From the NCBI GenBank assembly GCA_965367815.1, contig CBDUKN010000017.1, forward strand, positions 1-62,871: a stretch of 62,871 bases of DNA. The letters run 5' to 3'. The stretch comes from an uncultured Thermoprotei archaeon (GTDB taxonomy: Archaea; Thermoproteota; Thermoprotei; Thermofilales; B15-G2). This document shows, in pieces, positions 1,786 to 38,802 of the stretch (position 1 is the first letter of the stretch; each line of letters opens with the position of its first letter). The notes beneath the pieces were generated by a model. It did no database searches. It was given only the letters and a program-made list of their open reading frames with translations, and was not told the DNA's origin. A program made the position numbers and the translations under genes.

Positions 1786-1884
1786 TTTTATTTGACATTA
1801 TTGATTGGAAGTTTCCAATATTTTCTCGAAGTTTTTATTTATTTATATTTGAAAGAAGATACGCGAAAGTGGTGTCTAGGAAAA

Positions 1885-12629: not shown

Positions 12630-14120
12630 GTGAAAAATTTGAGAAAATATTTGAGGTATAAAATGGGGCTACTAGTAGCTCTCACGACTTTACTGTACCT
12701 AGCGCTCTTTGCTTCAGCTTGCTTTAGTCCAGCCGACAATTACGCTGTAGAAGCAGTATTGAATAAGCCGGGTGTAGTTTACGATGTCTCTAAATTAGAG
12801 AAAATTGAAGGAGTGCAGAAAGTGCATTACGGGTACTGGGCGAAAATAGCTTATGCTTATAAGAGTCACTATAATCCTAATCTAATTGTAGTGGTATCTA
12901 TTCAAGGACTAAAATACGCTAATATAGGCTCTAAACCGGCTTTAAGTATATCTATAAGAAACTACAGTGTATCGATTGTAGAAATAGTGTCTAAAATTAA
13001 GGAATCTTCCTTAAATTGGAGAAAAGACCTTAAGGTATACGACTCTGTCGCTGTATGTATTTTCTCTAAGAAAATAGGAGTGTGTGAAGTGAGAACGGAA
13101 ATTAAAGTAAAAGCTTCTGCTGCAAATACATCTGATATAGATTTCACGCTATGGATTATTGAGCTTAATAAACCTGAGCCTACTCTCGCCAAAGAAATTA
13201 AAAGTGAAGTAGATTCTCTGCTGAAAACAATAGGTTTGAGCGCTTTACGTAATTTTATTAAAGATAAAGCTATTGAAAATGCTTTAACGGGAGAAGCTTC
13301 TGTTCAAAAAGAATACATAGCTATTAGAATACAGATACCAGTTAAGGCTTTAGTTGAAGTAGTGACTGTATACTCTTATGGCACTACATATTCTTCAGAA
13401 AAACTTAATGTAAGTAAACTGAATGTAGATAAGGTTAAAGACCTTGGCTGGAAAATACTAGCTGAGAGAGCTGGTAAAAACTACATTGCGTTCATTTTAG
13501 TAAAAGAGCTAGAGAAAGTTAGAATTTCTTTGAGTGGTAAAGGCTTTAATAATACTGTTGTCCTCGAGTTTAAGGTTGTTGGCTCAAACAATTTAACTGA
13601 AAGCATTTTAAATGAATTCAGAAAAGTTCTTAGTGTAATAGGGCTTGACTCTAAGCTAGTTAATGGAAGCTGTTTCGAGAAATACTCTGAGTCTACTGGA
13701 TGCCGTTTTGTGCCTGCAGTGAACATGAGTGAGAGTGACTTGAAGAAGGCTCTTGAAGTAGAGTTGAAGTGGCTTATTGAAAATAAAGTTGTTTTAGGTT
13801 TAGGCGAAAAAGATGTAGAGGAAATAGCTGCGTCTGCGAAAATGGGGTATGCTGGCTGGAATAGTAGACTAGTGTGGTATAACGGCAAGTGGATACCCTA
13901 CTTTAAGATACCTAACGCGGCTCTAGTAAGATGTCTTAGTTCTCCGCCAGCAATATTTACTCAAGTAGAGTACGGCGAAAGCCCGCCAACTGGACAGCAG
14001 GGAGAAAAGGTTTCAGAAAAGCCTTTGGGCTTCTGGTATGTGCACTTACTTATCTTAGCTACGGCTGTAGTCGCTGCGATTATCGCGTACTATATTGCTA
14101 GAAAAAAGCTTTCTCTGTAG
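12630..14120 (+). CDS. Secreted, membrane-anchored surface protein
   Basis: Signal peptide, ACFSPAD..VLNKPG N-terminus, C-terminal TM plus RKK. Confidence 0.7.
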   Translation: MKNLRKYLRYKMGLLVALTTLLYLALFASACFSPADNYAVEAVLNKPGVVYDVSKLEKIEGVQKVHYGYWAKIAYAYKSHYNPNLIVVVSIQGLKYANIGSKPALSISIRNYSVSIVEIVSKIKESSLNWRKDLKVYDSVAVCIFSKKIGVCEVRTEIKVKASAANTSDIDFTLWIIELNKPEPTLAKEIKSEVDSLLKTIGLSALRNFIKDKAIENALTGEASVQKEYIAIRIQIPVKALVEVVTVYSYGTTYSSEKLNVSKLNVDKVKDLGWKILAERAGKNYIAFILVKELEKVRISLSGKGFNNTVVLEFKVVGSNNLTESILNEFRKVLSVIGLDSKLVNGSCFEKYSESTGCRFVPAVNMSESDLKKALEVELKWLIENKVVLGLGEKDVEEIAASAKMGYAGWNSRLVWYNGKWIPYFKIPNAALVRCLSSPPAIFTQVEYGESPPTGQQGEKVSEKPLGFWYVHLLILATAVVAAIIAYYIARKKLSL

Positions 14121-19829: not shown

Positions 19830-20640
19830 AAGATAAAGCTACTGCACCATAGGAGCTATATAGAGAAATTCAAAGGCAGGAAGTGGTACGAGGTAACCGT
19901 AAGTATCGACAAACATGGAAGAATATGGGTAAGTATACCGTTTAGATGGGAGTACAATCCATTCAAGCCTAAGAAAATAGTCTCACTTGACATAAACCTT
20001 AAGAAAATAGTAGTCTATAATGGCAGAAGTATTAGAAGAATAGATACTAGGTTTACAGAAGCCTTGTATCTCAAGCACCTCGCCGAGAATATTCAGAAAA
20101 AACACAGATATGCGTGGAGGAGAAACGAAAAGTGGCTGAGCATTATTAGAGCGCTCCATAGGAGGAGCAGGAATATAGTAGTTGACTTGTCTCGTAAATT
20201 CGCTAAATACATCGTGTTAAAAGCTAGGAAGACAAAAAGCGCTATAGTATTAGAAGACCTCGATAAGCTATGGTTTAGTGCTTCACAGAAATCCTCTAGC
20301 CTAGCAGACAAACTCTCAAGATTTGCCTATAGGAAGCTACAGCTAGCGATAGTAGCTAAAGCGATAGAGTATAACGTACCAATAGTCTTCGTGAATCCTA
20401 GAGGGACATCAACTATATGTCCTAGATGCGGAGCTAAGTTAACTTATAACCACAGACTAGCGATTTGCAGAAACTGCGGCTTCGTAGCTGATAGAGACAC
20501 AGTTGGAGCAATAAACATCTACTTTAAAGCAATAGAATATTTAGCCCCATGCCTCGGGTCATGGGGCATCCACTCGATGACGAATGAAACCTGACTGAAG
20601 AGTGAGCTACCTAAAAATGAACCGATGACCAAACATATAA
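19830..20640 (+). mobile_element. tnpB: 5'-truncated IS200/IS605-type element: partial tnpB (frame open from ~19830 to 20594) plus putative right end
   Basis: RuvC motifs SLDIN, VLEDL and DRDTVGAINI; CPRCG/CRNCG zinc ribbon; N-terminus missing. Confidence 0.85.
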
Positions 20641-21260: not shown

Positions 21261-21518
21261 GTGAGAGTTATTGTTGTGTTTGATGTTCCGGTAGGCTATG
21301 ATTGGCTCCGCGACCGTTTAAGAGAAAAACTCAAAGACTTTGGAGGAACTTTTCTTCAGCGAAGTGTCTATGAAATTGACTGTGACTGGAAGACATTTAA
21401 TAAACTTTATAAAGTAGTTGATAGCGTTTTAAGAAAAGGTGCTGGCCGAGTAGACTTTATTTTCCCTTGCGCCAAGTGCTACAAGAACATAAGAATTATA
21501 GGCGGTGAACTTGATTAG
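21261..21518 (+). CDS. cas2: CRISPR-associated endoribonuclease Cas2
   Basis: VIVVFDV..LKDFG..LQRSVYE; 85 aa; C-terminal CxxC. Confidence 0.9.
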   Translation: MRVIVVFDVPVGYDWLRDRLREKLKDFGGTFLQRSVYEIDCDWKTFNKLYKVVDSVLRKGAGRVDFIFPCAKCYKNIRIIGGELD

Positions 21519-22182
21519 AGGCTATTCTCTCCAACTAAAATACAGTTTTTTCACAGTCACAGTATCTGAAGTAGTCTCTTATCTCTACTGCCCGCGCAAA
21601 CTACTCCTCATACGTACACTAGGCCTAAAAGACAAGCCGCTTGAAGAAACACTAGAGGGAGTACAGGCACACATCATATACGAGAAACTAACACTATTCT
21701 ACATGAAAACAAAAGAGAGCAAAGACTACTGGAAACTAGTTAGCGAACTCGAAGAAAAAGAAAATTTCCCCGAAATAAGAAAACTAGCAGAATTCAGATA
21801 CAGCAACCCCTTCACCTCAGCCCAAGTAGAAGTACCGGTCGAAATACAGGGAATAAAAGGAAGAATAGATATAATTGAAGACAAAACACCAATTGAAATA
21901 AAGTACAGAAATAAACTACTCGAAAGAGACGTAGTACAAGTAACATGGTATACACTACTAGCAGAAGCAGCCTTAAACAAAAACATAGACTACGCTTACA
22001 TAGACCTCCTCAAAATCCCAAAAAGAATAAAAATACACATAGACAACGAAAAAAGAATAAAAGCACTAAAAACTAGAGAAAAATGCATAAAAACAATAAT
22101 ACAAAACAACTACACATTAAAAAGAAAAAACTGCAGAAAATGCCCACTTCGGAAAGAATGCAAACTACTAAACCTAACCTAA
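21505..22182 (+). CDS. cas4: CRISPR-associated Cas4 nuclease
   Basis: YCPR, GRIDII..EIK, QVTWY and C-terminal CxxCxxxxxC Fe-S motif. Confidence 0.9.
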   Translation: MNLIRGYSLQLKYSFFTVTVSEVVSYLYCPRKLLLIRTLGLKDKPLEETLEGVQAHIIYEKLTLFYMKTKESKDYWKLVSELEEKENFPEIRKLAEFRYSNPFTSAQVEVPVEIQGIKGRIDIIEDKTPIEIKYRNKLLERDVVQVTWYTLLAEAALNKNIDYAYIDLLKIPKRIKIHIDNEKRIKALKTREKCIKTIIQNNYTLKRKNCRKCPLRKECKLLNLT

Positions 22183-22307: not shown

Positions 22308-22485
22308 AAAACTTATTTATTTTTATTTGAATATTATAGTTAAGTTTATATATTTGTTTTTTACTCCCTTATAAAGGGGTTTATAAATATTATATAGGTA
22401 TGAAATAGTGGGGGCGTTAGAAATATATTATGTTGAAGAGCTAGAATAACTGAAAAGAAAACAAACAACACTGTACCAAAACCCA
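22308..22485 (+). promoter_or_regulatory. CRISPR leader copy with imperfect palindrome (22363-22380) and TATA-like boxes
   Basis: Homologous to the sequences at 24059, 32086, 36529, 35413 and 39697; directly precedes a repeat. Confidence 0.8.
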
Positions 22486-22761
22486 CAATAATTTAAAAAT
22501 CTCTTAAAGAGAATAGAAAGTAATATAGAGCTCAAAGTATACTTAGAGCTTGAGAAAATCCTAGCAATAATTTAAAAATCTCTTAAAGAGAATAGAAAGA
22601 AAAATGTGCTATCGAATTTTATTTCTTCATTAAGAAACGGTACCAATAATTTAAAAATCTCTAGAAAAGAACAAGAAAATTAGTAGTGCTCCCATTCTAA
22701 CAGCGAAGCCTCTAAGCCCGTTCTTTCAGTGTTAATTTAAATCTCTAAAGGAGAATAGAAG
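22486..22761 (+). CRISPR. Short array: 2 intact repeats CAATAATTTAAAAATCTCTTAAAGAGAATAGAAAG plus 2 degenerate
   Basis: Repeats at 22486, 22565, 22644 and ~22733; first two spacers are 44 bp. Confidence 0.9.
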
Positions 22762-23823: not shown

Positions 23824-24058
23824 TCAAAATAAATTAAGCATAAAAACAACACATACAATAAGATAAATATATACAACCTCAATAACTGCATCTAGCTTCT
23901 TCATCTCAAGCAACTTTAGCTCCTCTTAACTTATTAATCACTATTTACCTATATAAAACTAAAGTAATCAGTAAATAGCAAACAAATAATTAACTGAAAC
24001 AAACTTTTACAAAAAACACAGTACTATCCCTCCTAAAATCACATTAAAGTAAAAAACG

Positions 24059-24267
24059 AAACTTATTTATTTTTATTTGAATATTATAGTTAAGTTTATA
24101 TATTTGTTTTTTACTCCCTTATAAAGGAGTTTAAAAATATTTAACAGATATAACAATAATTTAAAAATCTCTTAAAGGGAATAGAAAGTTTTAAAATCTA
24201 TGTTTAGATGTCTTGCTGCAAAGTTTCTTAATTTTCTTTATTAAATTAAAATCTTTAAAGGGAGATT
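24059..24267 (+). CRISPR. Internally deleted leader, repeat (24154-24188), spacer and degenerate repeat
   Basis: 24059-24128 is identical to 22309-22378; repeat CAATAATTTAAAAATCTCTTAAAGGGAATAGAAAG. Confidence 0.8.
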
Positions 24268-24507
24268 TATATGATTGCTTCGATTATTTTGTGTTTTAAG
24301 GTGTTTCAGTTAAAGGGTTTTGCTAGTTGTTTGAGAAAAGTTTAAATTTCTTTGTGTGAAGTTAGAGAGGAGTTTTAGTATACTATGTGGAGGAGGGTGT
24401 GGAGTTTTGTTTTATTTTTGAGAGATAGTTTGGGGTGTTTTACGGGTTTGTTGAGAAAAATTTTTAGTGCTTTTTGGTTTAATTTGTTTAGGGTTTGTGT
24501 CAAGTTT

Positions 24508-26448: not shown

Positions 26449-28071
26449 GTGGAAGAGAAAGTAGTAGGTTTCACGGCATTTGATAAGAGGAGAGACTCTT
26501 CTAACAGTATTCTAGCCTATGTGCCTGAAGAAAAAGCCGATGCTCTGGCTCGAGGAAAATATGTTAAAATAGTTTCAGACTACGGAGGTAGTACTAGGGT
26601 TTTTGTAGGCAGAGTGACTGGAGGTCCTTTTTACGAGACCGAGGGTGTTGACGTGGCTTCGGCTGAAGTAGACGTGATGGTGTCTCATCCTCTTATTGAA
26701 CGTGTGCCCCAGTACCGTGCTGTATATGAGGTAGAGGTTTTAGGAGAAGTAGAGGATGCTGTGAAAATGGTTTTGAAGTCTTCTTATACTAGACCTAGGC
26801 CTAAGTCAAAAGTTTTTCTCTTGTCGCCTCTAGAGCTCTCGAAGTACTTTAGGTTCGAGTCTCGTGGAATGCTTCTTGGCCACCTTATGCACTATAAAGG
26901 CGTTAAAGTCTACTTAGATCCCGGCGACATTAATGTTCTTCCGAGGAACTTGGGTATATTTGGTACTGTTGGGAGCGGTAAGACTAATACTGCTCAAGTT
27001 CTTATAGAAGAGGCTTCTAGGTGTGGGTGGGCTGTCGTAGTAATTGATGTTGAGGGCGAGTACGTGTACATGGATCAGCCTAACGACAGTGATAAAATGA
27101 TCCGTATTCTCGAGAGCGAATATAAGCTTGAGCCTGAGGGTCTCAGAGACTTCGGGGTGTATGTGCCTGAGCCCTCGGAGTACTGTGTTAGGAGAGACGC
27201 AGATAGTTTTTCGCTCTCTTTCTACGACTTAACTCTTCCTCTTGTCTTAGAGATTATTAGGGCTAATGAGCCTCAGGAAAGAAGGCTTAGCCGTGTCTGG
27301 AGAAAGCTTGAGGAAAGTGTTTTGAAAGAAGAAGAGCCAGCTGATGCTTTCGAGGAATTTATTGGCGCTAGAACTGAGGCTAAGAAAGGATTTACTCTCA
27401 GAGAGCTTATTGAGCGCGTAGAGCAGCTGGCTGAGCAAGCTAAAGTTAGGAGACAGACCTACGACGCTACGAGCTATGAGGCGATAGCGAGTAAGCTTGA
27501 GCGCCTTGAGGCGACAGGGCTCTTTGATAAAGACCGCATTTTGTCTGTGGATGAGCTTCTTGTTCCAGGTAGAGTTTCTGTAATAGATGTGAGCGATGCA
27601 AGCGATACTGTCAAGAATATTGTTATTAGCTGGCTTTTGCTCAAAATATTTTCAGCTAAATTGAGGAATCCCAGGGCTCCTAAAACACTATTTATTATAG
27701 AAGAGGCTCATACTTTTGTCTCGAAGGAGAAAGCTGAAGCTATGCGCACTACACTCGACATGCTTAAAACTATAGCTAGGAGAGGTAGGAAAAGGTGGCT
27801 TTCGCTCTGCTTTATATCACAGCAACCAGGCCACTTGCCTACCGAGATCTTTGAGCTCTGCAATACTAGGATAGTGCACCGCCTTATGAGCGAGTATAAT
27901 TTAAGGGCTCTTAGAGAAACTACGACAGGTGTTGCTAGAGAAGTCTGGAGGACTGTGCCGGGGTTCCATGTAGGCGAGGCTTTATTGGCGTCGCCTCAGC
28001 TGCCTCACCCAGTTTTAATGAAAGTGAGACCTGCTAAAACAATGAGAGCTCGCTTAACAGAGCTACGCTAG
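26449..28071 (+). CDS. herA: HerA-family ATPase/helicase
   Basis: HAS-barrel-like N-terminus, GTVGSGKT, DVEGEY, IEEAH, ARRGRK, SQQP. Confidence 0.92.
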   Translation: MEEKVVGFTAFDKRRDSSNSILAYVPEEKADALARGKYVKIVSDYGGSTRVFVGRVTGGPFYETEGVDVASAEVDVMVSHPLIERVPQYRAVYEVEVLGEVEDAVKMVLKSSYTRPRPKSKVFLLSPLELSKYFRFESRGMLLGHLMHYKGVKVYLDPGDINVLPRNLGIFGTVGSGKTNTAQVLIEEASRCGWAVVVIDVEGEYVYMDQPNDSDKMIRILESEYKLEPEGLRDFGVYVPEPSEYCVRRDADSFSLSFYDLTLPLVLEIIRANEPQERRLSRVWRKLEESVLKEEEPADAFEEFIGARTEAKKGFTLRELIERVEQLAEQAKVRRQTYDATSYEAIASKLERLEATGLFDKDRILSVDELLVPGRVSVIDVSDASDTVKNIVISWLLLKIFSAKLRNPRAPKTLFIIEEAHTFVSKEKAEAMRTTLDMLKTIARRGRKRWLSLCFISQQPGHLPTEIFELCNTRIVHRLMSEYNLRALRETTTGVAREVWRTVPGFHVGEALLASPQLPHPVLMKVRPAKTMRARLTELR

Positions 28072-28886
28072 CTCTCTATGTAGGGTAAAAGTATTTTAAT
28101 CCACTTCTTCAGTTTTACTTTCTTTTGGTCTTCTATTGTAACTAGTCTTCTTTCAGAAAGCTCTTTGAGGACGTTTTCTTCTATTTCGTCTGCAGGAAGG
28201 AATCCGTGTAGTTTTTCTCGCTCATATATTTTCTTGAGTTCATTTAAGTATACTGCTTTAACTGTGAGGGGGATTGAGGGTAATTCGACGTGTTCTCTGA
28301 AGTTTTCGTGAATGTAGTAGACTGAGTCTACATTGAGGAGGAAAGCAGCTATTATTAGGAAAGAGGTTTCGGGCTTGAATCCTGCTGTAGCGCAGACATA
28401 TACTTTGTGGCCTGCTTTCTTGTACTCGCTTATAAGCTTACAGGCTGTGTCAAGGAGACTCATTAAGCCTTCTTCGAATACCACGCCAAAGCCTTTAACT
28501 ACTTTGACTTCAGTGTCTATACCTGCTTTTTCCGACAAGTACTTCTTGACTATGGATGAGCAGAAATAGCCTACTCCTGTGTCTGTTGAAAGAAGTAGTA
28601 CTTTGTCTACAAGCCCATTTTCTAGGAAGTATTTGAGTGAGTTTAGTTCAGCGCTCATAGTATATGGGTCTTTAACTACCATAGTGTAGACTTCGTTAAA
28701 TACTCTCGATGTTATAGAGACGTGCTCTTTCAGTTCAAGGTCTTCAGGGGACCCGGGTGTAGCTAACTTAGCTTTAATTAAAGTGTTTTTAATATCTTCG
28801 GATATATCTTTTTTCAGAGCGTTCGCTACAATAGATGTGCCTGTAGTGACTAAGTGTACGTGCATAGTTACTTTATGCTCTAGCAC
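28068..28886 (-). CDS. APE2256/SSO1393-family CARF + wHTH protein (Crn1-type ring nuclease candidate)
   Basis: TTGTS, SAELNSL, STDT, ATAGFKPE and YIHE motifs. Confidence 0.85.
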   Translation of the reverse strand: MLEHKVTMHVHLVTTGTSIVANALKKDISEDIKNTLIKAKLATPGSPEDLELKEHVSITSRVFNEVYTMVVKDPYTMSAELNSLKYFLENGLVDKVLLLSTDTGVGYFCSSIVKKYLSEKAGIDTEVKVVKGFGVVFEEGLMSLLDTACKLISEYKKAGHKVYVCATAGFKPETSFLIIAAFLLNVDSVYYIHENFREHVELPSIPLTVKAVYLNELKKIYEREKLHGFLPADEIEENVLKELSERRLVTIEDQKKVKLKKWIKILLPYIES

Positions 28887-28910: not shown

Positions 28911-30191
28911 TTACTGGGCACTGTTTTCGAAAAACAGGCTTTTTCTACTTTTCTCTAAAATCTTTTCGACATCCCAGACTTCTATGTCTTCTGGCTCTTT
29001 TTCGAGAACACTTGTCTCAGGAACTATTAGTATTTTTTGAATGTTTTTGAATTTACCGAGTTTCTCTTCGACTGTTTTTACTTCTTTTCGCGGTACATAG
29101 TTTTTCCATTTAACTTCACCAACTAATTTAAGTCTCTTAAACTCTAAGAGAGCTATATCTACTTCAAGCTCTCTTTCTTCAATTATTTGATACTGTAAAC
29201 CAAGGATCTTCGATAAAAGATTTCTAAAAAACTGTTCTACGTGTCTGGGAAGCTTCTCGTTTACTACTCTTCTTATAAATTTTTTCGGTATATCTAGCTC
29301 TGTATAAGAGTACTTGCTTTCAAGATAGTAGTGTAAATCTAGTAGAGGCGACTTGTGGAAATACCTGTACTTTTTCTTATTGAATACTTTTATTTTCTCT
29401 AAAATACCCATTTCCGTTAAAATATTTAAGTATTTTTGTAGAATACCTGGATTATCTTTAGCTAAAAGTCCTCTAGAGAAAAGCAGAGAAGATATTTCCG
29501 TACTAATGTTTTTTCCATCTGCTACAGCTTTTAAAACGCCCTCGTAAATATTTGTAAGTTCTCTTTCTTCTTCTCTAAACACTTCTCCTACGAGCTCTTT
29601 TAGTATTAGCTTGCCGTCGTAGAGAAAGTCTGCAAGAAAGTCTCTAATGTTTCCTCCTCTGTAAAAGGGAATAAGCATTACTTCTCTGAGGTACACTGAG
29701 CTCTCAACTAGCTCTTTCCCCTGGAAATCTTTCGACAACTCTACTAGAATTTCTCTCTCGTCGACTAAATCTATTTTAACGGGCTTTACTAGTCCTAAGA
29801 GAGGCTGACCTCTACCTATTATTTTCTTCGCTAGCCAGAGAGTCGACGTTATCAGAATTAAATTACCTTTAATTCCTAATGCGTGTAGAAAATCTAGGAA
29901 ACTTTCGGGAAGTCTATGAAACTCGTCTACAACTATTGTTTTATCTTCAATAATTTCTCTAAGTATTTTAATAAATTCTCTATATGTATAGAATTCTCCC
30001 GACTCTTTATCTAAAACTGTTCCATCTCTATTGACGAAGAAAAACTTATCGTAGGGAATAAAGTTTTCTACTAAAAAGGTTTTCCCAGTTTTCCTTCTAC
30101 CATAGACCATTACCCAAGGCAAACTCCTTCTAATCCTCGAGATTTCTATTCTTCTGGGAATTATTCTCACGGGAATAATGAATATGAACAT
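28911..30191 (-). CDS. Archaeal ATPase (ATPase_2) with wHTH and C-terminal PD-(D/E)XK-like domain
   Basis: GRRKTGKT, VVDEFH, EVDI..GEVKW. Confidence 0.88.
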   Translation of the reverse strand: MFIFIIPVRIIPRRIEISRIRRSLPWVMVYGRRKTGKTFLVENFIPYDKFFFVNRDGTVLDKESGEFYTYREFIKILREIIEDKTIVVDEFHRLPESFLDFLHALGIKGNLILITSTLWLAKKIIGRGQPLLGLVKPVKIDLVDEREILVELSKDFQGKELVESSVYLREVMLIPFYRGGNIRDFLADFLYDGKLILKELVGEVFREEERELTNIYEGVLKAVADGKNISTEISSLLFSRGLLAKDNPGILQKYLNILTEMGILEKIKVFNKKKYRYFHKSPLLDLHYYLESKYSYTELDIPKKFIRRVVNEKLPRHVEQFFRNLLSKILGLQYQIIEERELEVDIALLEFKRLKLVGEVKWKNYVPRKEVKTVEEKLGKFKNIQKILIVPETSVLEKEPEDIEVWDVEKILEKSRKSLFFENSAQ

Positions 30192-30276: not shown

Positions 30277-30786
30277 GTGGAGAATATTTTGAGTATGCTT
30301 ATTGAAAGAAAATGCATACCTTTAAGTGAACTAGATGAGAAGACTGTAAGAAAACTGACTAGAAGCGGTTTTGCTAAAGTAGGTGGAGGCTTTCTTTACC
30401 CTACAGAAGCTCTTCTCGAAGCTTTTTCTAATGAGAAAATATATGGAAAAAAAGGATTAGTGCTCCTAAGCCCTAATGGAGCCTTTTTCACTAAAAGTAA
30501 ATTCGGTAAAAGTTTTCTCCGCAAATACTTTATTGTAGTAGAAGGCTGGCTTGAAGGAGAGTCTCCTACACTACTTCCTCCAGCATCCGCTCTTGTACTC
30601 GAAGCAGAAGAATCTTTTCTCAAAGGAAACTATGGACTAGCTAGAGCTAAGCTCCTCCAGGCAGCAGAACTAGCTAGAAATAAAGCACTTAAAGAGAAAG
30701 TAGAGAAAACACTGTCTTCAAGTGACCTCAAAGAAGTTTTAGAAGAATTTAAAAAGAGGCTGGGACTACGAGAGGAACAATTCTAA
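30277..30786 (+). CDS. Unknown protein with wHTH-like N-terminus and helical C-terminus; candidate Argonaute partner
   Basis: 169-aa ORF overlapping the start of the Ago reading frame. Confidence 0.65.
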   Translation: MENILSMLIERKCIPLSELDEKTVRKLTRSGFAKVGGGFLYPTEALLEAFSNEKIYGKKGLVLLSPNGAFFTKSKFGKSFLRKYFIVVEGWLEGESPTLLPPASALVLEAEESFLKGNYGLARAKLLQAAELARNKALKEKVEKTLSSSDLKEVLEEFKKRLGLREEQF

Positions 30787-31973
30787 GAAAACCTGTACTA
30801 AAGTTCCGTGAAGGCACTGCCCTAACTCCACTAGAAGGATTCCGCTTAGGTTTCAAGCCATGGAGCGGGCCAAGCCAAGTAACACTAACAGTCGTAGCCC
30901 TCAGAAAAGTATCTACTGAAGCAAAAAAACTAGTCGAGAGAACAGTCTACGGCTACAAATGGTTCAAAGGACTAGAAGAGTGGTTCGACATAGAAGTACC
31001 CGAAATAAACTTCATAGAAGTCTCTAGCACTAAAGAGTACTTCGAGAAAATAGAAGAAATACCCTACACTACAGTAGTGCTCACAGTAATACCTGACGAA
31101 ATGAGCGTAGACTACGACGAAGACCCCTACATGCCTCTCAAACAAGAGTACGCGAGCAGAGGAATACCGAGCCAAATGATAAACTTCTCTACATGCAGAA
31201 ACTTGAGAGAAAGCCCAGTAGTACTCTATAACATCGCCTTAAATATCTATGCTAAAGCAGGAGGAATACCCTGGATATTAGCAGAACCTCTCCAAACAGA
31301 CGCAGCAATAGGACTAGATACAGGCGGAGGAGCAGCAGCTGCAACACTCCTCTACAACTGGACAAACCTAAATTTCACTTGGGAAACAGAAGCAAATCCA
31401 TCAGTAAGAGAAGTACTCTCCCTAGAAACTCTACTAAACAAACTAATAGAGAAAATAGCTGAAGAAAACAAGCCCCCATCAAACATAGTATTCCACAAAG
31501 AAGGACTATTCCACCCAAAAGAAATACAGCTCTTACGGAAACTAGTAGAAGACTGGAAAACCCAAGGACTAGTAGAAGAAAACTTCCAGTACACTGTAGT
31601 AGAGGTCAAGAAAAAATGCGTACCAAGAATACTCCGAGAACAAGGACCCCGCTACTACAACCCAGTCAAAGGAACATGCCTAATACTAGACAAATACAAA
31701 GCACTAGTAACTACAACAGGCTACCCAGACAAAATACTCCACACAGCCCCAGTAAAACCACTAATAGTCGAAATAGCAGACACAAGCAACTGGGACACAG
31801 CAAACATACTACAGTATGCAAAACAAGTCTACTGGCTATCAGAACTACACTGGGGATCAGGAATATTCACCTCAAAATACCCCATAACAACACTATACGC
31901 ACACAGAATAATAGCATTCTGGACCCAAGGAATACACCCAGCAGAACAAGAAAACACACTATGGTTCCTATAA
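30753..31973 (+). CDS. ago: Prokaryotic Argonaute, MID-PIWI only (~400 aa); start codon unresolved
   Basis: Frame open from 30753. ILRKPVLKF..PLEG N-terminus; MID Y-K-Q-K (YMPLK, SQMI, YAKAGG); PIWI GLD, HKEG, YPITTLYAH; C-terminal LWFL. Confidence 0.92.
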   Translation, partial: KEAGTTRGTILRKPVLKFREGTALTPLEGFRLGFKPWSGPSQVTLTVVALRKVSTEAKKLVERTVYGYKWFKGLEEWFDIEVPEINFIEVSSTKEYFEKIEEIPYTTVVLTVIPDEMSVDYDEDPYMPLKQEYASRGIPSQMINFSTCRNLRESPVVLYNIALNIYAKAGGIPWILAEPLQTDAAIGLDTGGGAAAATLLYNWTNLNFTWETEANPSVREVLSLETLLNKLIEKIAEENKPPSNIVFHKEGLFHPKEIQLLRKLVEDWKTQGLVEENFQYTVVEVKKKCVPRILREQGPRYYNPVKGTCLILDKYKALVTTTGYPDKILHTAPVKPLIVEIADTSNWDTANILQYAKQVYWLSELHWGSGIFTSKYPITTLYAHRIIAFWTQGIHPAEQENTLWFL

Positions 31974-32085: not shown

Positions 32086-32263
32086 AAAACTTATTTAATC
32101 TTATTTAAATACTACAGTTAAACTTATATATTTGTTTTTTACTCCTTTATAAAGGAGTTTAAAAATATTTAACAGACATAAAATAATGAAAACACTAAAA
32201 ATATATTACACTAAAGATACAGAATAAGTGAAAAGAGAACAATCTAACCCAACCAACGATCCT
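32086..32263 (+). promoter_or_regulatory. CRISPR leader with perfect 18-bp palindrome ACTCCTTTATAAAGGAGT (32141-32158)
   Basis: Homologous to the other leader copies; precedes the array. Confidence 0.85.
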
Positions 32264-32880
32264 CAATTAATTAAAAATCTCTTAAAGAGAATAGAAAGTA
32301 GGCTTAAGTATGAGTGCTCTTATGTTACTGTGGGAGATATTAAATACAATTAATTAAATCTCAAAAAGAGAATAGAAAGTCCACGCTCCCCATTTCCTCT
32401 ACCCTCTCTTTCACCCAGTCGACTTAATTAATTAAATCTCAAAAAGAGAATAGAAAGGACTAGGAAGATGCACTGTTATCAGATACATAACACTCTTCCT
32501 ACCATTCTTACGCCTTAATTAATTAAATCTCAAAAAGAGAATAGAAAGAGAATTTTGTTCCAAGTATACAAGTGCCATCAGGCTTTGGCCAAATAACTTA
32601 ATTAATTAAATCTCAAAAAGAGAATAGAAAGAAAAGAAATTATCACTAGAAAGTCGCTGGGAGAAACACATATATCTTCTTAATTAATTAAATCTCAAAA
32701 AGAGAATAGAAAGTTGGAATAAAGTATGTTGGAGGAAGTTCTCTGAAAAACACTGTGAGCCTAGGCTTTCTCTTAATTAATTAAATCTCAAAAAGAGAAT
32801 AGAAAGTACGCCCAGTTCTTGAATATCTTCATCGGTTTCAATACTGCATCTTAATTAATTAAATCTCAAAAGAGAATGAC
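32264..32880 (+). CRISPR. CRISPR array: 8 repeats (consensus CTTAATTAATTAAATCTCAAAAAGAGAATAGAAAG), 7 spacers of 43-58 bp
   Basis: Repeats at 32264, 32347, 32423, 32514, 32597, 32679, 32772 and 32850 (degenerate). Confidence 0.96.
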
Positions 32881-33127
32881 GAGAACTTAGTTTATGCAGA
32901 GGTTTGCAAGATAGTTTTAATGGAGATGCTGTATAGTTTCAATACGGTGAAAAATAGGAGGAGAGAAGTGTTGTTTTTTATGTGTTTAGTTTTATGGATT
33001 GTTTAGTTAATTTATTTGAAGGAAGCAGAGTGTTTTAGATATTTTTTAGATTGTTTTGTATAATCTAGTAGGTTTTCTTCAGGTGATTTAATTGAGTGTG
33101 TAGTGTCGGTTGTTTAGGAGATGTTAT

Positions 33128-34541: not shown

Positions 34542-34973
34542 ATGTTATTTGTTTTTGATGAGAGAGAGTTTGAGAGATGGATTAGGAGTGCTTGGGCTAC
34601 TTTAAAGTCTGCTAGGAGTGATATTGAGGGCGGGTTTTTTAATTGGGCTTGTTTTAAGGCTCATCAAGTTGCTGAGAAAGCTTTGAAAGCTGTTTTATGG
34701 GGTGTTGGTAGGCCTCGTCTGGGTCATTCTCTTGTGGTTCTTCTTAGGGAAGTTGAGGAGCTTGGTGTGAGTGTTCCAGGTGATGTGAGGGAGTATTGTT
34801 TTCTTTTGAGTAAGTACTATATGATTACTAGGTATCCTGATACATGGGATACAGGTATTCCTGAAGAATATTTTACTAAGAGGGAGGCTGAGGAAGCTGT
34901 TAAAGCTGCTAGGAGGATTTTAGAGTGGGTTGAGGGTGTATGGAGAGAATTGCGGAGGAGAGAAGGGAGATGA
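34542..34973 (+). CDS. HEPN-domain protein
   Basis: ACFKAHQVAEKALKA, GHSL, YMITRYPD. Confidence 0.92.
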   Translation: MLFVFDEREFERWIRSAWATLKSARSDIEGGFFNWACFKAHQVAEKALKAVLWGVGRPRLGHSLVVLLREVEELGVSVPGDVREYCFLLSKYYMITRYPDTWDTGIPEEYFTKREAEEAVKAARRILEWVEGVWRELRRREGR

Positions 34974-35383
34974 GGGAAAGGGTTATTAGGGAAGTTAAGG
35001 TTTTTGCTAAGTCTTTAAGAGAGGTTTTAGGTTCTATTACTGTTGTTTTAGTAGGGTCTTATGCTAGAGGAGATTTTAATGAATGGAGTGATATTGATTT
35101 ACTTATTATTGTAGCTGAAGCTGATCCTAATCCCTTAAAAAGATATGATAAGATCCTCGATCTTTTAGTAAAATATAGTCTTCCTATTGAACCTATTATA
35201 GTTACTAAAGGAGAGTTTTTAAAAGGATTAAAGAAGAAAAACCCTTTATTCATGGAAGCCATCAAATTAGGCGTTATTTTGTGTGATGACCTAAAACTTT
35301 TAACAACAGACCACAGTAGAATGCTATACACAAATGGAACTAATACATGTCACAAACGTTCAGTCTACTACAATGAACAATAA
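34940..35383 (+). CDS. Minimal nucleotidyltransferase (MNT)
   Basis: GSYARGD..WSDIDL. Confidence 0.92.
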   Translation: MERIAEERREMRERVIREVKVFAKSLREVLGSITVVLVGSYARGDFNEWSDIDLLIIVAEADPNPLKRYDKILDLLVKYSLPIEPIIVTKGEFLKGLKKKNPLFMEAIKLGVILCDDLKLLTTDHSRMLYTNGTNTCHKRSVYYNEQ

Positions 35384-35751: not shown

Positions 35752-35991
35752 TTGGTGTGTTATGTGAATAGTGTTACGATTAGTGTTAGGATTCCGCGGG
35801 AGCTTAAGGAGAAGATTGATAGGTATGGTGTTAGAGTTAGCGAGGTTGTTAGGAGGGCTTTAGAGGAGGAGGTTAAGAGGAAGGAGTTTGAAGAAGCTGT
35901 TAGGGCTGCTGAGGAGCTTGGTGAGCTTTTTTCCAGGATACCTGATGAAGAGATTGTGCGTATTATTAGGGAGGGTAGGAGGACGAGATAG
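35752..35991 (+). CDS. VapB-type RHH antitoxin
   Basis: ISVRIPRELKEKI..SEVVRRALEEEV. Confidence 0.85.
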   Translation: MVCYVNSVTISVRIPRELKEKIDRYGVRVSEVVRRALEEEVKRKEFEEAVRAAEELGELFSRIPDEEIVRIIREGRRTR

Positions 35992-36410
35992 TGTATTTGC
36001 TTGATTCTAGTGCAATAGCAGTTCTTTTAAAGAGACTTGGTGGGAGTGCCGTAAAGTATTTTGCTGGAGTGTATACACTTGACTTAGCTTACTATGAACT
36101 AGGTAATATTTTATGGAAAGAATGTGCTTTAATGAAATTAATAAATGAGAAAGAAGCTGTAAATAAAGTTAAGTATATAGCTAAACTTCTAAAAACCATG
36201 AATATTGAAAGTATTAAATCGGAAAAAGACTTAGAGGGAACGATGGCGCTTGCAGTAAAACTTAAACTAACTTTCTATGACGCATCATACCTCTATGTAG
36301 CTAAAAAGAAAAACCTCATACTCGTAACCGAAGACCATGAACTCAGAGAAAAATCAGTAAAAGAAAATATTGAAGCCATAACCGTAGATGAGTACATAAA
36401 ACAAAAGTAA
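35991..36410 (+). CDS. vapC: VapC PIN toxin
   Basis: LLDSSA, YELGN, TFYDASY, TED. Confidence 0.9.
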   Translation: MYLLDSSAIAVLLKRLGGSAVKYFAGVYTLDLAYYELGNILWKECALMKLINEKEAVNKVKYIAKLLKTMNIESIKSEKDLEGTMALAVKLKLTFYDASYLYVAKKKNLILVTEDHELREKSVKENIEAITVDEYIKQK

Positions 36411-36528: not shown

Positions 36529-36817
36529 AAAACTTATTTAATTTTATTTAAAGACTACAGTAAAGTTTATATATTTGTTTTTTACTCCTTTATAAACAGG
36601 TTTATAAATATTACATAGACATAAAATAATTGAAGCGACAAAATATATTAATACTAAAAACACAGAATATTCGAAAAGAGCATAAACAATGCCAATTCAC
36701 GACCCAAATTAATTTAAAAATCTCTTAAAGAGAATAGAAAGGGTCGCATACTTCTTCATAGCAGAGAACCACCTTGCCTTCTAATTAATTTAAAAATCTC
36801 TTAAAGAGAATAGAAAG
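36529..36817 (+). CRISPR. Leader (36529-36706) plus mini-array: two identical repeats AATTAATTTAAAAATCTCTTAAAGAGAATAGAAAG around a 41-bp spacer
   Basis: Repeats at 36707-36741 and 36783-36817. Confidence 0.9.
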
Positions 36818-37338: not shown

Positions 37339-38802
37339 GTGGATAGTGTAGGAGACGGTATTTCTAGGTATTTGAGCTGGATTAGTTCTTGGAAGCAGGG
37401 TAAAGGTATTTATGGCGGTCTCCACGTCCATTCTTGCTGGAAAGTCTCTAGTGTTCTTGAGAAAAAGTATCAGGGAGTTACTGTTTCAGAGTACTTTGGT
37501 CTTATTAGAGGCTTCCTCAACTTATACAGTAAAACGGGCTACGAGTATTTTCTACTAGAAGCTAAAGCTATGTGTGATGCCCTATGTAGTCTTTTAGGCT
37601 CTGATGGCTGTTTTGAGCACAGTGTATATGAATTTGAGCCTGGTAGAGGAGGCTGTATACATAATGCTTTAGCCGACCTTGCTCTCCTCTCTTTCGCCGA
37701 AGCTCTAGTAGATGAGAACAAAGACCCTGATCCCTACTTGAAGACTGTTGAAAAGAACTTTGAGTGGTTTATGAGCTACTGGTGGAAGAGAGGTAATGCT
37801 TGGCTGAAGAATCCTAGTTTTCCTTGCTGGTGCGGTGTAACTAATCAGGATCTTGCTGTATGTTGGGCTATGGCCCTCTACGGCGAGCTCAAAGACAGGA
37901 AGTACTGGGAAGAGTATGGTTCGCGTGTCGCCTACTGGTATCTCGAGAACTATTTTCTGCCAGAATACAGGTGTTTTCTTAGAGGCGATGAACCCGAGTT
38001 CCCCGAACCCGCTCCCTACCACGGGCTTATTTCCTATGAGCTAGTCGAGCTCTATAAGCTTACAGGAGACTCGCTATTTCTTAAAAGAGCACTCGATGTC
38101 ATAGAATACTTGTATGAAAACTCCTGGATCGACAAGTATGGCTTAAGGAGAATTCACCACAATATAGACTTGAAGACAGGAAGAGTTTCATTAAAGCCTT
38201 CTCTCGTTACTCAAGGCTCGCTTATCTGCGCACTTGAGGAACTAGAAGATTTAGGTGTAGATAGGTTTAAGGAGTTTAAAGAAGAGCTGGTAAAGACTCT
38301 GCTTTTCTATCAGTCTGGTAGAGGCTACTTCCGTAACTCAACTGACTTCAATAACTTCTTTGATATTGTTTCGAGGATGTGTCCAGGCGAATTTGAAGCG
38401 CTGACCACTATATGGAGGGGAGGAAGTCTTCAACTTGAATCAGAGTATGCTTTGAGTATAGATTTTTCAGGAAAATACATTTGGTTTGACTCTGACTGCT
38501 GTTGGGAGCTCCGCGGAGACAATAGAGCAGTATATGGGCTTAAGCATATGAGTAACGGTATTTTCTCAGGAAGTATTTTCGGGAACAAAGTTCAGGTCTC
38601 TATGAAAAACAACTTTATTGTGCTTGAGCTAGACTTGCCTAAATACTCTTCTGTGTGCTTAGACCATGTCGTCGATCAGAACGTGTTGCTGAGAGTCAAG
38701 TTAACTAGTCCACTGAAGCTAGGAATTAAGCTGTGGGATGGGCGGAGACTGTGCCTTGATTTAAGTAAAGGTGTACACGAAATTTCTTCCAGTAGCTTGT
38801 AG
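37339..38802 (+). CDS. (alpha/alpha)6-barrel protein (glycoside hydrolase/epimerase-like)
   Basis: Repeated helical LY..TG...L..A motifs; aromatic-rich. Confidence 0.55.
   Translation: MDSVGDGISRYLSWISSWKQGKGIYGGLHVHSCWKVSSVLEKKYQGVTVSEYFGLIRGFLNLYSKTGYEYFLLEAKAMCDALCSLLGSDGCFEHSVYEFEPGRGGCIHNALADLALLSFAEALVDENKDPDPYLKTVEKNFEWFMSYWWKRGNAWLKNPSFPCWCGVTNQDLAVCWAMALYGELKDRKYWEEYGSRVAYWYLENYFLPEYRCFLRGDEPEFPEPAPYHGLISYELVELYKLTGDSLFLKRALDVIEYLYENSWIDKYGLRRIHHNIDLKTGRVSLKPSLVTQGSLICALEELEDLGVDRFKEFKEELVKTLLFYQSGRGYFRNSTDFNNFFDIVSRMCPGEFEALTTIWRGGSLQLESEYALSIDFSGKYIWFDSDCCWELRGDNRAVYGLKHMSNGIFSGSIFGNKVQVSMKNNFIVLELDLPKYSSVCLDHVVDQNVLLRVKLTSPLKLGIKLWDGRRLCLDLSKGVHEISSSSL

What the first reader, a model, noticed from the sequence alone, without database searches (positions are those of the whole stretch)
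30753..31973. Argonaute is PAZ-less but keeps a long-pAgo guide pocket and a nearly intact catalytic tetrad (D-E-E-H)
Seen: only L2-MID-PIWI is encoded. The MID pocket reads Y-K-Q-K and the C-terminus is LWFL. Tetrad positions by eye are GLD (D), REV (E), HKEG (E where RDG is canonical) and YAH (H, as in PfAgo). Known: canonical short pAgos have degenerate tetrads and often an HK pocket. Inference: an independently truncated long-A-like lineage with altered or lost slicing.
Basis: partly seen in the sequence, partly recalled or inferred. Interest (0 to 1): 0.75.

Follow-up and report, generated by a model that had tools for sequence, protein, structure and literature searches.

The report
Argonaute half without its partner gene
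This archaeal gene encodes only the guide-binding and cutting half of an Argonaute whose relatives carry the other half as a separate upstream gene; here that partner gene and the normal start codon are missing and one cutting residue is changed, so it is an odd, probably weakened member of a little-studied Argonaute family that sits in CRISPR gene clusters.

Summary
The open frame 30753-31973 (+) is a real MID-PIWI Argonaute: Pfam Piwi 9e-17, Y-K-Q-N-K 5'-phosphate pocket, LWFL end. By alignment to CbAgo/CpAgo its tetrad reads D189 / E220 / E250 / H384. Three things change the picture. (1) 30753 is only the first codon after a stop. There is no ATG/GTG/TTG before 31077; relatives start where the window has ACG (30768) or ATT (30780). 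(2) It belongs to a distinct clade of about 400-aa archaeal proteins (35 rows), of which 15 keep a full D-E-D-H/D tetrad. In 3 of 4 related genome loci a 420-430-aa gene that folds like the N-L1-PAZ-L2 half of long Argonautes lies directly upstream; in the fourth it lies 3.6 kb away. The family is therefore split, not truncated, and all four loci hold cas genes. (3) The window has no such N-half in 62.9 kb. An orphan 169-aa ORF, conserved in two close relatives, takes its place, and a CRISPR leader and array follow the gene. Asp-to-Glu at tetrad position 3 arose at least three times in the family and goes with loss of the glutamate finger, so slicing is probably impaired. Deep placement (long-A side or sister to inactive forms) is unresolved. 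Verdict: new variant of a known kind, moderate interest.

The parts
30753..31973 (+). Open frame of the MID-PIWI Argonaute subunit (406 codons plus TAA; protein P0001). The true start is unknown.
   Evidence: Translation without stops. Pfam Piwi 9e-17. 28 homologues found, full-length ones mostly 382-407 aa. It keeps 68 of 70 columns that are at least 90% conserved in the other 22 aligned rows.
30768..30770 (+). ACG codon (codon 6) at the position where P0006, P0007 and P0024 have their start Met. A GAGG motif at 30756-59 lies 8 nt upstream.
   Evidence: Alignment A1; codon and motif listing.
30780..30782 (+). ATT codon (codon 10) at the position of the start Met of P0011, P0019, P0020 and P0021. 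GAGG lies at 30772-75. The stop of the upstream ORF (TAA 30784-86) begins one base after this codon, which resembles the ATGA/TTGA stop-start overlaps in relatives.
   Evidence: junctions of L001 and L003 printed.
31077..31079 (+). First canonical start codon in frame (GTG, codon 109). Starting here would remove 108 residues that are conserved in the family.
31128..31256 (+). MID 5'-phosphate pocket residues: Y126 (31128-30), K130 (31140-42), Q141 (31173-75), N160 (31230-32), K168 (31254-56).
   Evidence: Alignment to CbAgo/CpAgo. All five are invariant in A1. YKQNK is present in 34 of 35 family rows.
31317..31319 (+). Tetrad position 1: D189 (GLD).
   Evidence: Aligned with CbAgo position 541 (Ala in the 6qzk mutant) and with Asp in CpAgo.
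31410..31412 (+). Candidate glutamate finger E220 (SVREV). It lies one residue after the family's consensus Glu column, which here is R219.
   Evidence: The assignment is not resolved.
31500..31502 (+). Tetrad position 3: E250 (HKEG), where most relatives have HRDG.
   Evidence: Aligned with CbAgo position 611 (Ala in 6qzk) and with HRDG of CpAgo 9jh7. It is Glu in 13 and Asp in 22 of 35 family rows.
31902..31904 (+). Tetrad position 4: H384 (LYAHR).
   Evidence: Aligned with CbAgo Asp 727. His is the commonest residue here in the family.
31959..31970 (+). C-terminal LWFL.
   Evidence: 33 of 35 family rows end in xWFL; the other two are cut short.
30277..30786 (+). Orphan 169-aa ORF (P0002) in the place where relatives have the N-half gene. 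It overlaps the Argonaute frame by 34 nt.
   Evidence: It has only two homologues (93% and 85% identity, 169 and 163 aa). No match in Pfam, PADLOC, NCBIfam or PDB. AF2 model pLDDT 59.5. Foldseek gave 0 hits with E up to 0.001.
32086..32884 (+). CRISPR leader-like repeat (32086-32298) and an array of 8 repeats (first at about 32264, last one degenerate at about 32851-32884). It starts 113 nt after the Argonaute stop.
28911..30191 (-). Divergent neighbour: AAA_14-type ATPase.
   Evidence: Pfam AAA_14 1.2e-6.
28068..28886 (-). CARF protein (Cas_APE2256; ring-nuclease-like). It is 37% identical to the homologue next to the Argonaute gene of L002.
26449..28071 (+). HerA-type ATPase, 48% identical to the HerA of L002.
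21261..22182 (+). Cas2 (21261-21515) and Cas4 (21505-22182), followed by another leader copy and a mini-array.

Best explanation
The frame encodes the MID-PIWI subunit of a two-gene ('split') Argonaute family of archaea. The family resembles catalytically active long-A pAgos and lives inside CRISPR-Cas and defence gene clusters. In relatives a 420-430-aa N-L1-PAZ-L2-like subunit is encoded directly upstream, with its stop overlapping the MID-PIWI start, so the two are presumably made together and assemble into a long-Argonaute-like heterodimer (inferred). Many members keep D-E-D-H. In the window's lineage three derived changes are seen. The N-half gene is gone and a lineage-specific 169-aa ORF takes its position. 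The ATG start is replaced by non-canonical codons (ACG or ATT). Tetrad Asp 3 is Glu, and the finger Glu is shifted by one residue. The most likely working model (inferred) has three parts. The protein is still made, by translation coupled to the upstream ORF from the ATT or ACG codon. It still binds 5'-phosphorylated guides through its intact Y-K-Q-N-K pocket and C-terminal end. It has weak or no slicing, so it acts as a guide-dependent binder or sensor in the CRISPR-linked island, not as a stand-alone nuclease.
For: Family identity. 28 homologues were found among 6657 candidates. The family forms one clade of 35 rows (FastTree support 96; IQ-TREE SH-aLRT 98 with 27 rows).

Split nature. The upstream 422-429-aa genes in L001, L003 and L004 abut or overlap the MID-PIWI start. 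In L002 the N-half is in two pieces 3.6 kb away. The L003 N-half matches residues 97-187 of the nearest long pAgo, P0045 (E 2e-10). Its AF2 model (pLDDT 85, pTM 0.66) matches the N-terminal halves of TtAgo, CpAgo and CbAgo (Foldseek E about 1e-14, 320-350 aligned columns). Its profile is collinear with residues about 7-335 of roughly 750-aa D-x-D-D-type long pAgos (best E 1e-18). In the 666-position PADLOC model 'PprPIWI' the N-half covers positions 5-286 and P0001 covers 292-655.

cas context. cas genes are present in 4 of 4 related loci. The window has arrays, Cas2, Cas4, Cas6 and CARF proteins.

Still under constraint. 68 of 70 conserved columns are kept, within the range of the other members (61-70 of 70-73). 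This includes eight of the nine conserved positions listed for residues 1-108, before the first canonical start. The 94%-identical relative P0003 is also intact. Its gene model starts at an internal codon. The P0002 homologue P0172 comes from a contig of the same length, 6524 nt.

Impaired slicing. Glu at position 3 occurs in 13 of 35 rows and needs at least 3 changes on the tree. The consensus finger Glu is kept in 1 of those 13 rows against 16 of 22 Asp rows, and positions 1 or 4 are also degenerate in several of them. The PDB holds a TtAgo 'E546 mutant' crystallised with an uncleaved target (title). From memory this is the same tetrad position and a cleavage-deficient mutant; I did not read the paper.
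Against: No ATG/GTG/TTG start exists for the conserved N-terminal 108 residues, and use of ACG or ATT is not shown. No N-half was found in the 62.9-kb window by tblastn, by a 3-sequence and a 7-sequence profile on the six-frame translation, or by PADLOC on neighbours and unannotated ORFs. Without it, the duplex-binding cleft of long Argonautes would be missing. P0002 has no detectable fold or family, and nothing links it physically to the Argonaute. Glu can in principle still bind metal, so loss of activity is not shown. D189, E220, E250 and H384 are identical in the 94% and 75% relatives P0003 and P0004, which could mean the site is still used. The counts of Glu rows include near-identical sequences (P0016/17/19 and P0020/21).
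Confidence: 0.5

Rival explanations
1. The gene is a decaying remnant that is no longer translated. It lost its start codon and its N-half partner, and its active site has begun to degenerate.
For: No canonical start before codon 109. No N-half in 62.9 kb. Asp-to-Glu at tetrad position 3 and a shifted finger.
Against: 406 codons are free of stops or frameshifts. 68 of 70 family-conserved columns are kept, as many as in members with intact genes, including the part before the first canonical start. The 94% relative P0003 and the 75% relative P0004 are open over everything that was recovered. The upstream ORF and its stop position are identical in three independent sequences.
Confidence: 0.2
2. 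It is still an active slicer. Glu250 replaces Asp as a metal ligand, E220 is the finger, and the protein works with an N-half encoded elsewhere in the genome (as in L002, where the halves are unlinked) or on its own.
For: D189, E220, E250 and H384 are conserved in P0003 and P0004. The pocket and C-terminus are intact. In L002 the N-half is not adjacent. The nearest long pAgo clade (P0045, P0066, P0073, P0086) also has Glu at this position.
Against: In the family, Glu at position 3 goes with loss of other tetrad residues. P0066, P0073 and P0086 also lack position 4 or position 1. The engineered TtAgo mutant at this position was used with an uncleaved target (PDB title; its inactivity is recalled from memory).
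Confidence: 0.2
3. The 169-aa ORF and the Argonaute frame are joined into one polypeptide of about 565 aa by a programmed -1 frameshift at UUU-AAA-AAG (30748-56), which would give the Argonaute a new N-terminal domain.
For: The two frames overlap by 34 nt. The Argonaute frame is -1 relative to the ORF. An A-rich run sits exactly after the in-frame stop. This would also solve the start-codon problem.
Against: The heptamer is not of the X-XXY-YYZ type in register. The downstream RNA folds no better than shuffled sequence (z 0.19; 104 of 200 shuffles fold at least as well). No fused form appeared among the homologues of 223-711 aa.
Confidence: 0.04

Closest known systems
Long-A pAgos of the CbAgo/CpAgo type (Clostridium butyricum 6QZK, C. 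perfringens 9JH7)
   Same: They are the best solved relatives (profile E 7e-41 and 8e-37). They share the Y-K-Q-N-K pocket, the hydrophobic C-terminal end and collinear tetrad columns. In relatives the N-half model superposes on their N-terminal halves.
   Different: These are single chains of about 750 aa with D-E-D-D. Here only about 400 aa (MID-PIWI) are encoded, position 3 is Glu and position 4 is His. The family's halves are separate genes and the genes sit among cas genes.
Split long-B Argonaute fAfAgo (AfAgo plus AfAgo-N; Manakova et al. 2024, PMC10954474; passages read)
   Same: The same gene logic is seen in the window's relatives: an upstream gene for the N-terminal part and a downstream MID-PIWI gene. 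AfAgo is the fourth-best solved match (1.4e-26).
   Different: AfAgo is catalytically inactive. Its partner is N-L1-L2 without PAZ, and a membrane or effector gene follows it. In this family 15 of 35 rows keep D-E-D-H/D, the N-half is as long as the PAZ-containing half of long pAgos, and the downstream neighbours are cas genes or arrays. The window itself lacks the N-half.
SiAgo-Aga1-Aga2 (Sulfolobus islandicus; 8ZNJ; PMC11788926; passages read)
   Same: An archaeal MID-PIWI protein that needs a separately encoded N-L1-L2-like partner.
   Different: Sequence similarity is weak and partial (E 0.12 with the single sequence, 2.6e-8 with the profile, positions 67-196 only). SiAgo is inactive and signals to a membrane effector. 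No such effector gene follows here.
MpAgo-like pAgos inside CRISPR loci (Ryazansky et al. 2018, PMC6299218; passages read)
   Same: Argonaute genes embedded between cas1, cas2, cas6 and type III genes.
   Different: That group has the MID-OH pocket for 5'-hydroxyl guides and is single-chain. This family has the canonical 5'-phosphate pocket and is split. From memory MpAgo is about 640 aa; no chain of that length is among the 50 PDB sequences matched by the family profile.
Short pAgo systems (SPARTA, SPARSA, SPARDA)
   Same: A MID-PIWI-only polypeptide with a separately encoded N-L1-L2 analogue.
   Different: According to Ryazansky et al. 2018 short pAgos have HK/RK pockets, dead tetrads and APAZ-effector partners. 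Here the pocket is YK, no APAZ or effector gene is adjacent, and similarity is much lower (about 1e-15 against 7e-41).
PADLOC-DB models PDLC02436 'pAgo' (460 positions) and PDLC02428 'PprPIWI' (666 positions)
   Same: P0001 matches both strongly (2.9e-62 and 1.5e-52). The relatives' N-half matches the first 286 positions of PprPIWI. Proteins of this general kind were therefore already in a 2023 defence-gene library.
   Different: PprPIWI is a single-chain model. I found no paper under that name, so what its members do is unknown to me.

Membership tests
Argonaute/PIWI superfamily | PIWI (RNase H-like) domain | tested here: met
   Pfam PF02171, E 9e-17, 61.7 bits against a cut-off of 28.9; 22 PADLOC pAgo models matched.
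Argonaute/PIWI superfamily | MID domain with a 5'-end binding pocket (Y/H/R-K-Q-N-K) | tested here: met
   Y126, K130, Q141, N160 and K168 align with the CbAgo/CpAgo pocket columns and are invariant in A1.
Long-A pAgo (Ryazansky et al. 2018) | Placement in the long-A clade on a MID-PIWI tree | tested here: inconclusive
   The family is its own clade (support 98), in a polytomy with D-x-D-D-type long pAgos that include a CpAgo anchor (P0101). Joining it to the inactive group is not rejected (AU p 0.448). Only one characterised anchor (CpAgo) was in the tree.
Long-A pAgo (Ryazansky et al. 2018) | Complete DEDX catalytic tetrad | tested here: not met
   The window reads D189 / E220 (one column off the consensus) / E250 / H384, with Glu where Asp is required. 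15 of 35 family rows do have D-E-D-H/D.
Long-A pAgo (Ryazansky et al. 2018) | N-L1-PAZ-L2 in the same polypeptide | tested here: not met
   It is absent from the frame and is a separate gene in relatives. Ryazansky et al. do list 'truncated' long pAgos without PAZ.
Split pAgo (fAfAgo type, Manakova et al. 2024) | Upstream gene encoding the N-terminal (N-L1-L2) part | tested here: not met
   Met in relatives (adjacent in 3 of 4 loci, 3.6 kb away in 1 of 4). Not met in the window: no N-half was found by tblastn, two profiles or PADLOC. The upstream ORF P0002 shows no similarity to it (hhalign probability 0.19%).
Split pAgo (fAfAgo type, Manakova et al. 2024) | Heterodimer of the two halves | not tested
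   No complex prediction could be run. The tool never accepted the P0001/P0002 job, and no N-half/MID-PIWI pair of a relative was submitted.
Short pAgo (SPARTA/SPARSA/SPARDA) | HK or RK pocket, dead tetrad, APAZ-effector partner | tested here: not met
   YK pocket. No PADLOC, Pfam or NCBIfam match of the upstream ORF P0002 to any family, APAZ-effector models included; the other neighbours match ATPase, CARF and HerA families instead. Profile E about 1e-15 to solved short pAgos.
SiAgo-like | Close kinship to SiAgo and Aga1/Aga2 partners | tested here: not met
   E 0.12 (single sequence) and 2.6e-8 (profile, partial) to 8ZNJ chain A. A CRISPR array lies downstream, not a membrane-effector gene.
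MpAgo-like CRISPR-associated pAgo | MID-OH pocket; gene inside a CRISPR-cas locus | tested here: not met
   The locus criterion is met. The pocket is the canonical 5'-phosphate type.

The most novel reading that the evidence does not exclude
A slicer-type Argonaute family exists as two genes (an N-PAZ subunit and a MID-PIWI subunit) wired into CRISPR-Cas loci. In this lineage the N-PAZ subunit has been exchanged for an unrelated small protein (P0002) whose translation is coupled to a non-AUG start of the MID-PIWI subunit. That would make a new two-component Argonaute system with a Glu-for-Asp active site.
Probability: 0.15. Interest if true: 0.7.

Novelty: new variant of a known kind. Interest (0 to 1): 0.5.

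Why it matters
Split Argonautes have been described for inactive long-B proteins (AfAgo) and for short pAgos. Those cases fed a model in which loss of catalysis comes before loss of PAZ and splitting (Manakova et al. 2024; passages read). Here a family has separate halves and a PAZ-sized N-half, and 15 of 35 rows keep an intact D-E-D-H/D tetrad. If that holds up, splitting can happen in catalytically competent Argonautes, and it offers a natural two-piece slicer for study. The constant cas context (4 of 4 related loci plus the window) adds a second Argonaute group, after the MpAgo-like one, that is physically tied to CRISPR adaptation and type III genes. The window's copy shows a later stage, with the partner replaced, the start codon lost and the active site drifting. 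The recurrent Asp-to-Glu change gives a testable marker of how slicing is lost.

Tried and rejected
(1) Frameshift fusion of P0002 and the Argonaute. The slippery-like run is out of register, the downstream RNA is no better than shuffles, and no fused homologues were found.

(2) P0002 as a short relative of the winged-helix protein next to the Argonaute genes of L001 and L002. BLASTP E 8 and 0.23; hhalign probability 0.24%. Rejected as unsupported.

(3) P0002 as a remnant of the N-half's C-terminal part. hhalign probability 0.19%, E 0.31. Unsupported.

(4) Fold of P0002. The AF2 model is poor (pLDDT 59.5). Foldseek gave no hit with E up to 0.001. The ESM Atlas gave a score of 0.75, below any useful level.

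(5) An N-half elsewhere in the window. tblastn, profiles and PADLOC on eight unannotated ORFs found nothing.

(6) Pfam PAZ models as a test for PAZ in the N-half. They miss PAZ even in the CpAgo-like protein P0101, so the test is uninformative. Length collinearity with long pAgos and Foldseek were used instead. The 3'-end pocket itself was not examined.

(7) Complex prediction of P0001 with P0002.

I therefore could not see whether other members of the closest cluster have a longer N-terminus or a canonical start.

(10) Literature on the TtAgo Asp546-to-Glu mutant. Two searches and one look-up gave nothing usable, so its inactivity is recalled from memory only.

(11) NCBIfam gave nothing above cut-off for P0001. 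Rfam gave no match in the window.
Full report
**What is at the coordinates.** Translating 30753-31973 on the + strand gives 406 residues and a TAA, with no internal stop. Pfam finds a Piwi domain (E 9e-17, 61.7 bits, cut-off 28.9, residues 121-387). The mechanical ORF list shows only 31077-31973 (298 aa, GTG) in this frame. The codon before 30753 is TAA (30750-52). Between 30753 and 31076 the only near-cognate codons in frame are ACG (30768, codon 6), ATT (30780, codon 10) and five ATA codons (codons 80-103). The first ATG/GTG/TTG is GTG at codon 109.

A second ORF runs from 30277 to 30786 (169 aa, P0002). It lies in the frame one base ahead and overlaps the Argonaute frame by 34 nt.

The best solved relative is CbAgo (6qzk, E 5.2e-27), followed by CpAgo. 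In those alignments three things hold.
- DPY-MPLK, PSQM, YNIAL and YAKAGG fall on the Y-K-Q-N-K pocket columns.
- GLD falls on 'GLAVG' of the 6qzk chain and on 'GLDVG' of CpAgo.
- HKEG falls on 'HRAG' (6qzk, and CpAgo mutant 9jh8) and on 'HRDG' (CpAgo 9jh7), and YAH falls on 'YAD'.

This gives D189, E250 and H384 at tetrad positions 1, 3 and 4. That these CbAgo positions are D541, D611 and D727 of its tetrad is recalled from memory. The position numbers follow from the alignment coordinates, and the Ala/Asp contrast between mutant and wild-type chains supports the assignment.

The finger is less certain. The family consensus is P-x-V-E-V, and the window has P-S-V-R-E-V, with Arg in the consensus column and Glu one residue later. 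In the profile alignments the CbAgo/CpAgo 'GEK' finger lies within 1-2 residues of that column, next to an indel. The C-terminus is LWFL.

**A defined family.**
- A word-indexed search found 28 proteins (E up to 1e-5) among 6657 candidates. The in-family hits are 34-94% identical, and most full-length ones are 382-407 aa and cover 92-99% of the query.
- An exhaustive profile search found 2619 proteins with E up to 0.001. There is a step from family members to the first long Argonaute, P0045 (762 aa, 8.7e-48).
- In an alignment of the 143 hits that cover at least 280 profile positions, the family is a clade of 35 rows (FastTree support 96). With 27 family rows among 101 rows in IQ-TREE it has SH-aLRT 98.
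- A group of 29 rows without the tetrad (420-460 aa and 700-1200 aa forms) is split off by a branch with support 99. The family sits in a polytomy with long pAgos that keep Asp at positions 1 and 3, among them P0101, which is CpAgo itself (1577 bits).
- The tree that holds the family and the inactive group together is only 2.36 log-likelihood units worse (AU p 0.448). The deep position is therefore open.
- I had only one characterised anchor in the tree.
- Profile E-values against solved structures run: CbAgo 7e-41, CpAgo 8e-37, AfAgo 1.4e-26, AaAgo 9e-23, short pAgos about 3e-15, RsAgo 2e-13, SiAgo (8ZNJ; identity of the entry from PMC11788926) 2.6e-8, PfAgo 4e-7, TtAgo 6e-7.

**Tetrad in the family.**
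- All 35 rows have the pocket, except one row that is cut before the Tyr.
- 15 rows read D-E-D-H or D-E-D-D. A 16th (P0025) has D-E-D and is garbled before position 4.
- 6 further rows have Asp at position 3 but no Glu in the finger column; three of these have an alignment gap there.
- 13 rows have Glu at position 3: P0001, P0003, P0009, P0010, P0011, P0015, P0016, P0017, P0019, P0020, P0021, P0024 and P0033.
- Among those 13, the finger column holds Glu in one (P0011). Position 1 is Asp in 7, Glu in 5 and Ser in 1. Position 4 is His in 8, Ser in 3 and Asn in 2.
- The Asp/Glu state needs at least three changes on the family tree.
- Several of the 13 are near-copies (P0016/17/19 and P0020/21), so the counts overstate independent events.
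- The nearest long clade (P0045, P0066, P0073, P0086) also has Glu at position 3.
- The PDB lists a TtAgo 'E546 mutant' crystallised with guide and target (rank 39). From memory this is tetrad position 3 and a cleavage-deficient form. I could not read the paper.

**The missing half exists in relatives.** 325 of them encode a relative, and the best 80 were kept. Four of those are family members: L001 (Baldrarchaeota), L002 (Thermoproteota), L003 (Thermoprotei) and L004 (Jordarchaeales).

In L001, L003 and L004 a gene of 429, 422 and about 425 aa ends at the start of the MID-PIWI gene. In L003 the two overlap as ATGA, and in L001 as TTGA. In L002 two ORF pieces of the same protein lie 3.6 kb away on the other strand.

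These proteins have no Pfam or PDB sequence match. Other evidence identifies them.
- The L003 protein aligns with residues 97-187 of P0045 (35% identity over 91 residues, E 2e-10). The L001 protein aligns more weakly (E 0.008).
- With five database homologues plus L001 and L004 (7 rows), AlphaFold2 gives pLDDT 85 and pTM 0.66.
- Foldseek puts the N-terminal halves of TtAgo, CpAgo and CbAgo on top (E about 1e-14, probability 1.00, 320-350 aligned columns of 422).
- The 7-row profile is collinear with residues about 7-335 of roughly 750-aa long pAgos, without a large gap (P0096 1e-18, P0080 4.5e-13, P0125 4.7e-12). A PAZ-sized segment is therefore retained.
- In PADLOC the N-half covers positions 5-286, and P0001 positions 292-655, of one 666-position model, 'PprPIWI'.

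The ancestral state of the family is thus a split long Argonaute. All four loci carry cas genes beside the pair: Cas2 in L001, L002 (twice) and L003; Cas1 in L001 and L002; Cas4, a CARF protein and HerA in L002; Csx1 in L003; and four RAMP/Cmr genes in L004.

**The window differs.** No N-half is detectable in 62.9 kb. P0002 stands in its place. It has two homologues only: 93% identity, 169 aa, from a contig of the same length as that of the 94%-identical Argonaute P0003; and 85% identity, 163 aa. Their last 13 residues are identical. P0002 matches nothing in Pfam, PADLOC, NCBIfam, PDB or the ESM Atlas, and it folds poorly.

The surroundings are a CRISPR and defence island.
- A leader-like 213-nt repeat and an 8-repeat array start 113 nt after the Argonaute stop.
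- Three more leader copies lie at 22308, 24058 and 36529, and a 26-repeat array lies at 89-1786.
- The island also holds Cas2-Cas4, Cas6, Csx1, two CARF proteins, HerA, AAA_14 ATPases, a HEPN/nucleotidyltransferase pair and a PIN protein.
- HerA and the CARF protein are 48% and 37% identical to those beside the L002 Argonaute gene.

**Is the gene alive?** P0001 keeps 68 of 70 columns that are at least 90% conserved in the other 22 aligned rows. The other members keep 61-70 of 70-73. The conserved positions L16, G21, T22, P26, P36, G67, G73 and F78 all lie before the first canonical start. ACG at 30768 aligns with the start Met of three relatives and ATT at 30780 with that of four. Each is preceded by GAGG, and the ATT lies next to the stop of P0002, as the ATG does in relatives. 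P0003's gene model begins at an internal codon. This suggests, but does not show, that its contig also lacks a canonical start.

I read all this as continued selection and coupled, non-canonical initiation. A recent pseudogene cannot be excluded.

**What is known.** Ryazansky et al. 2018 (passages read) list 31 long pAgos without PAZ, scattered over the tree, including long-A ones. They also describe the MID-OH group that sits in CRISPR loci. Manakova et al. [quoted passage not shown] Bastiaanssen et al. 2024 (passages read) report 15 Asgard Argonaute clades, some without N-PAZ.

Four searches and passages of the SPARDA preprint turned up no description of a split long-A-type or CRISPR-linked split family. 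I did not open supplementary data sets, which may list these sequences.

**Verdict.** The interpretation needs to change from 'truncated' to 'split family, partner lost here'. The gene is a new variant of a known kind.

Noticed in passing
window 89-1786: CRISPR array of 26 repeats (26-nt unit ending ...ATAGAAAG) at the window's start.
   Followed up: no
window 22308-22520, 24058-24270, 32086-32298, 36529-36741: Four copies of a 213-nt leader-like repeat (61-100% alike). Each is followed by 1-8 CRISPR repeats ending ...GAGAATAGAAAG, so there are several mini-arrays with duplicated leaders.
   Followed up: partly
window 21261-22182: Cas2 and Cas4 genes with no Cas1 detectable anywhere in the 62.9-kb window (Pfam on ORFs of 100 aa or more; tblastn with the relatives' Cas1).
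   Followed up: partly
window 20064-20594: A 176-aa ORF with only the C-terminal TNB domain of Cas12f/TnpB-like proteins, probably a fragment.
   Followed up: no
window 34542-35383 and 35991-36410: A HEPN/nucleotidyltransferase gene pair and a PIN-domain gene between the mini-arrays (toxin-antitoxin-like modules).
   Followed up: no
L002 12788-14037 (minus strand): The N-half gene of this relative is in two ORF pieces and is unlinked from its MID-PIWI gene (3.6 kb away, with cas4, a CARF gene, cas1 and cas2 between them), although that MID-PIWI protein has a full D-E-D-H tetrad.
   Followed up: partly
P0045, P0066, P0073, P0086 (nearest long pAgos): These single-chain relatives also carry Glu at tetrad position 3, so the Asp-to-Glu change recurs outside the family too.
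   Followed up: no
L001 2180-3469, L003 1988-3256, L004 about 1112-2386: The N-half proteins have about 100 extra N-terminal residues that are not covered by the long-pAgo alignments or by the PADLOC PprPIWI model. This may be an added domain of unknown role.
   Followed up: no
L001 4674-5477 and L002 14360-15061 (minus strand): A conserved winged-helix protein (26% identity, E 2e-8) accompanies the Argonaute pair in two relatives. No counterpart was found in the window.
   Followed up: partly
window 8820-11441, 12630-14120, 3195-4697, 37339-38802: Four large ORFs (873, 496, 500 and 487 aa) without any Pfam or PADLOC match inside the defence island.
   Followed up: partly
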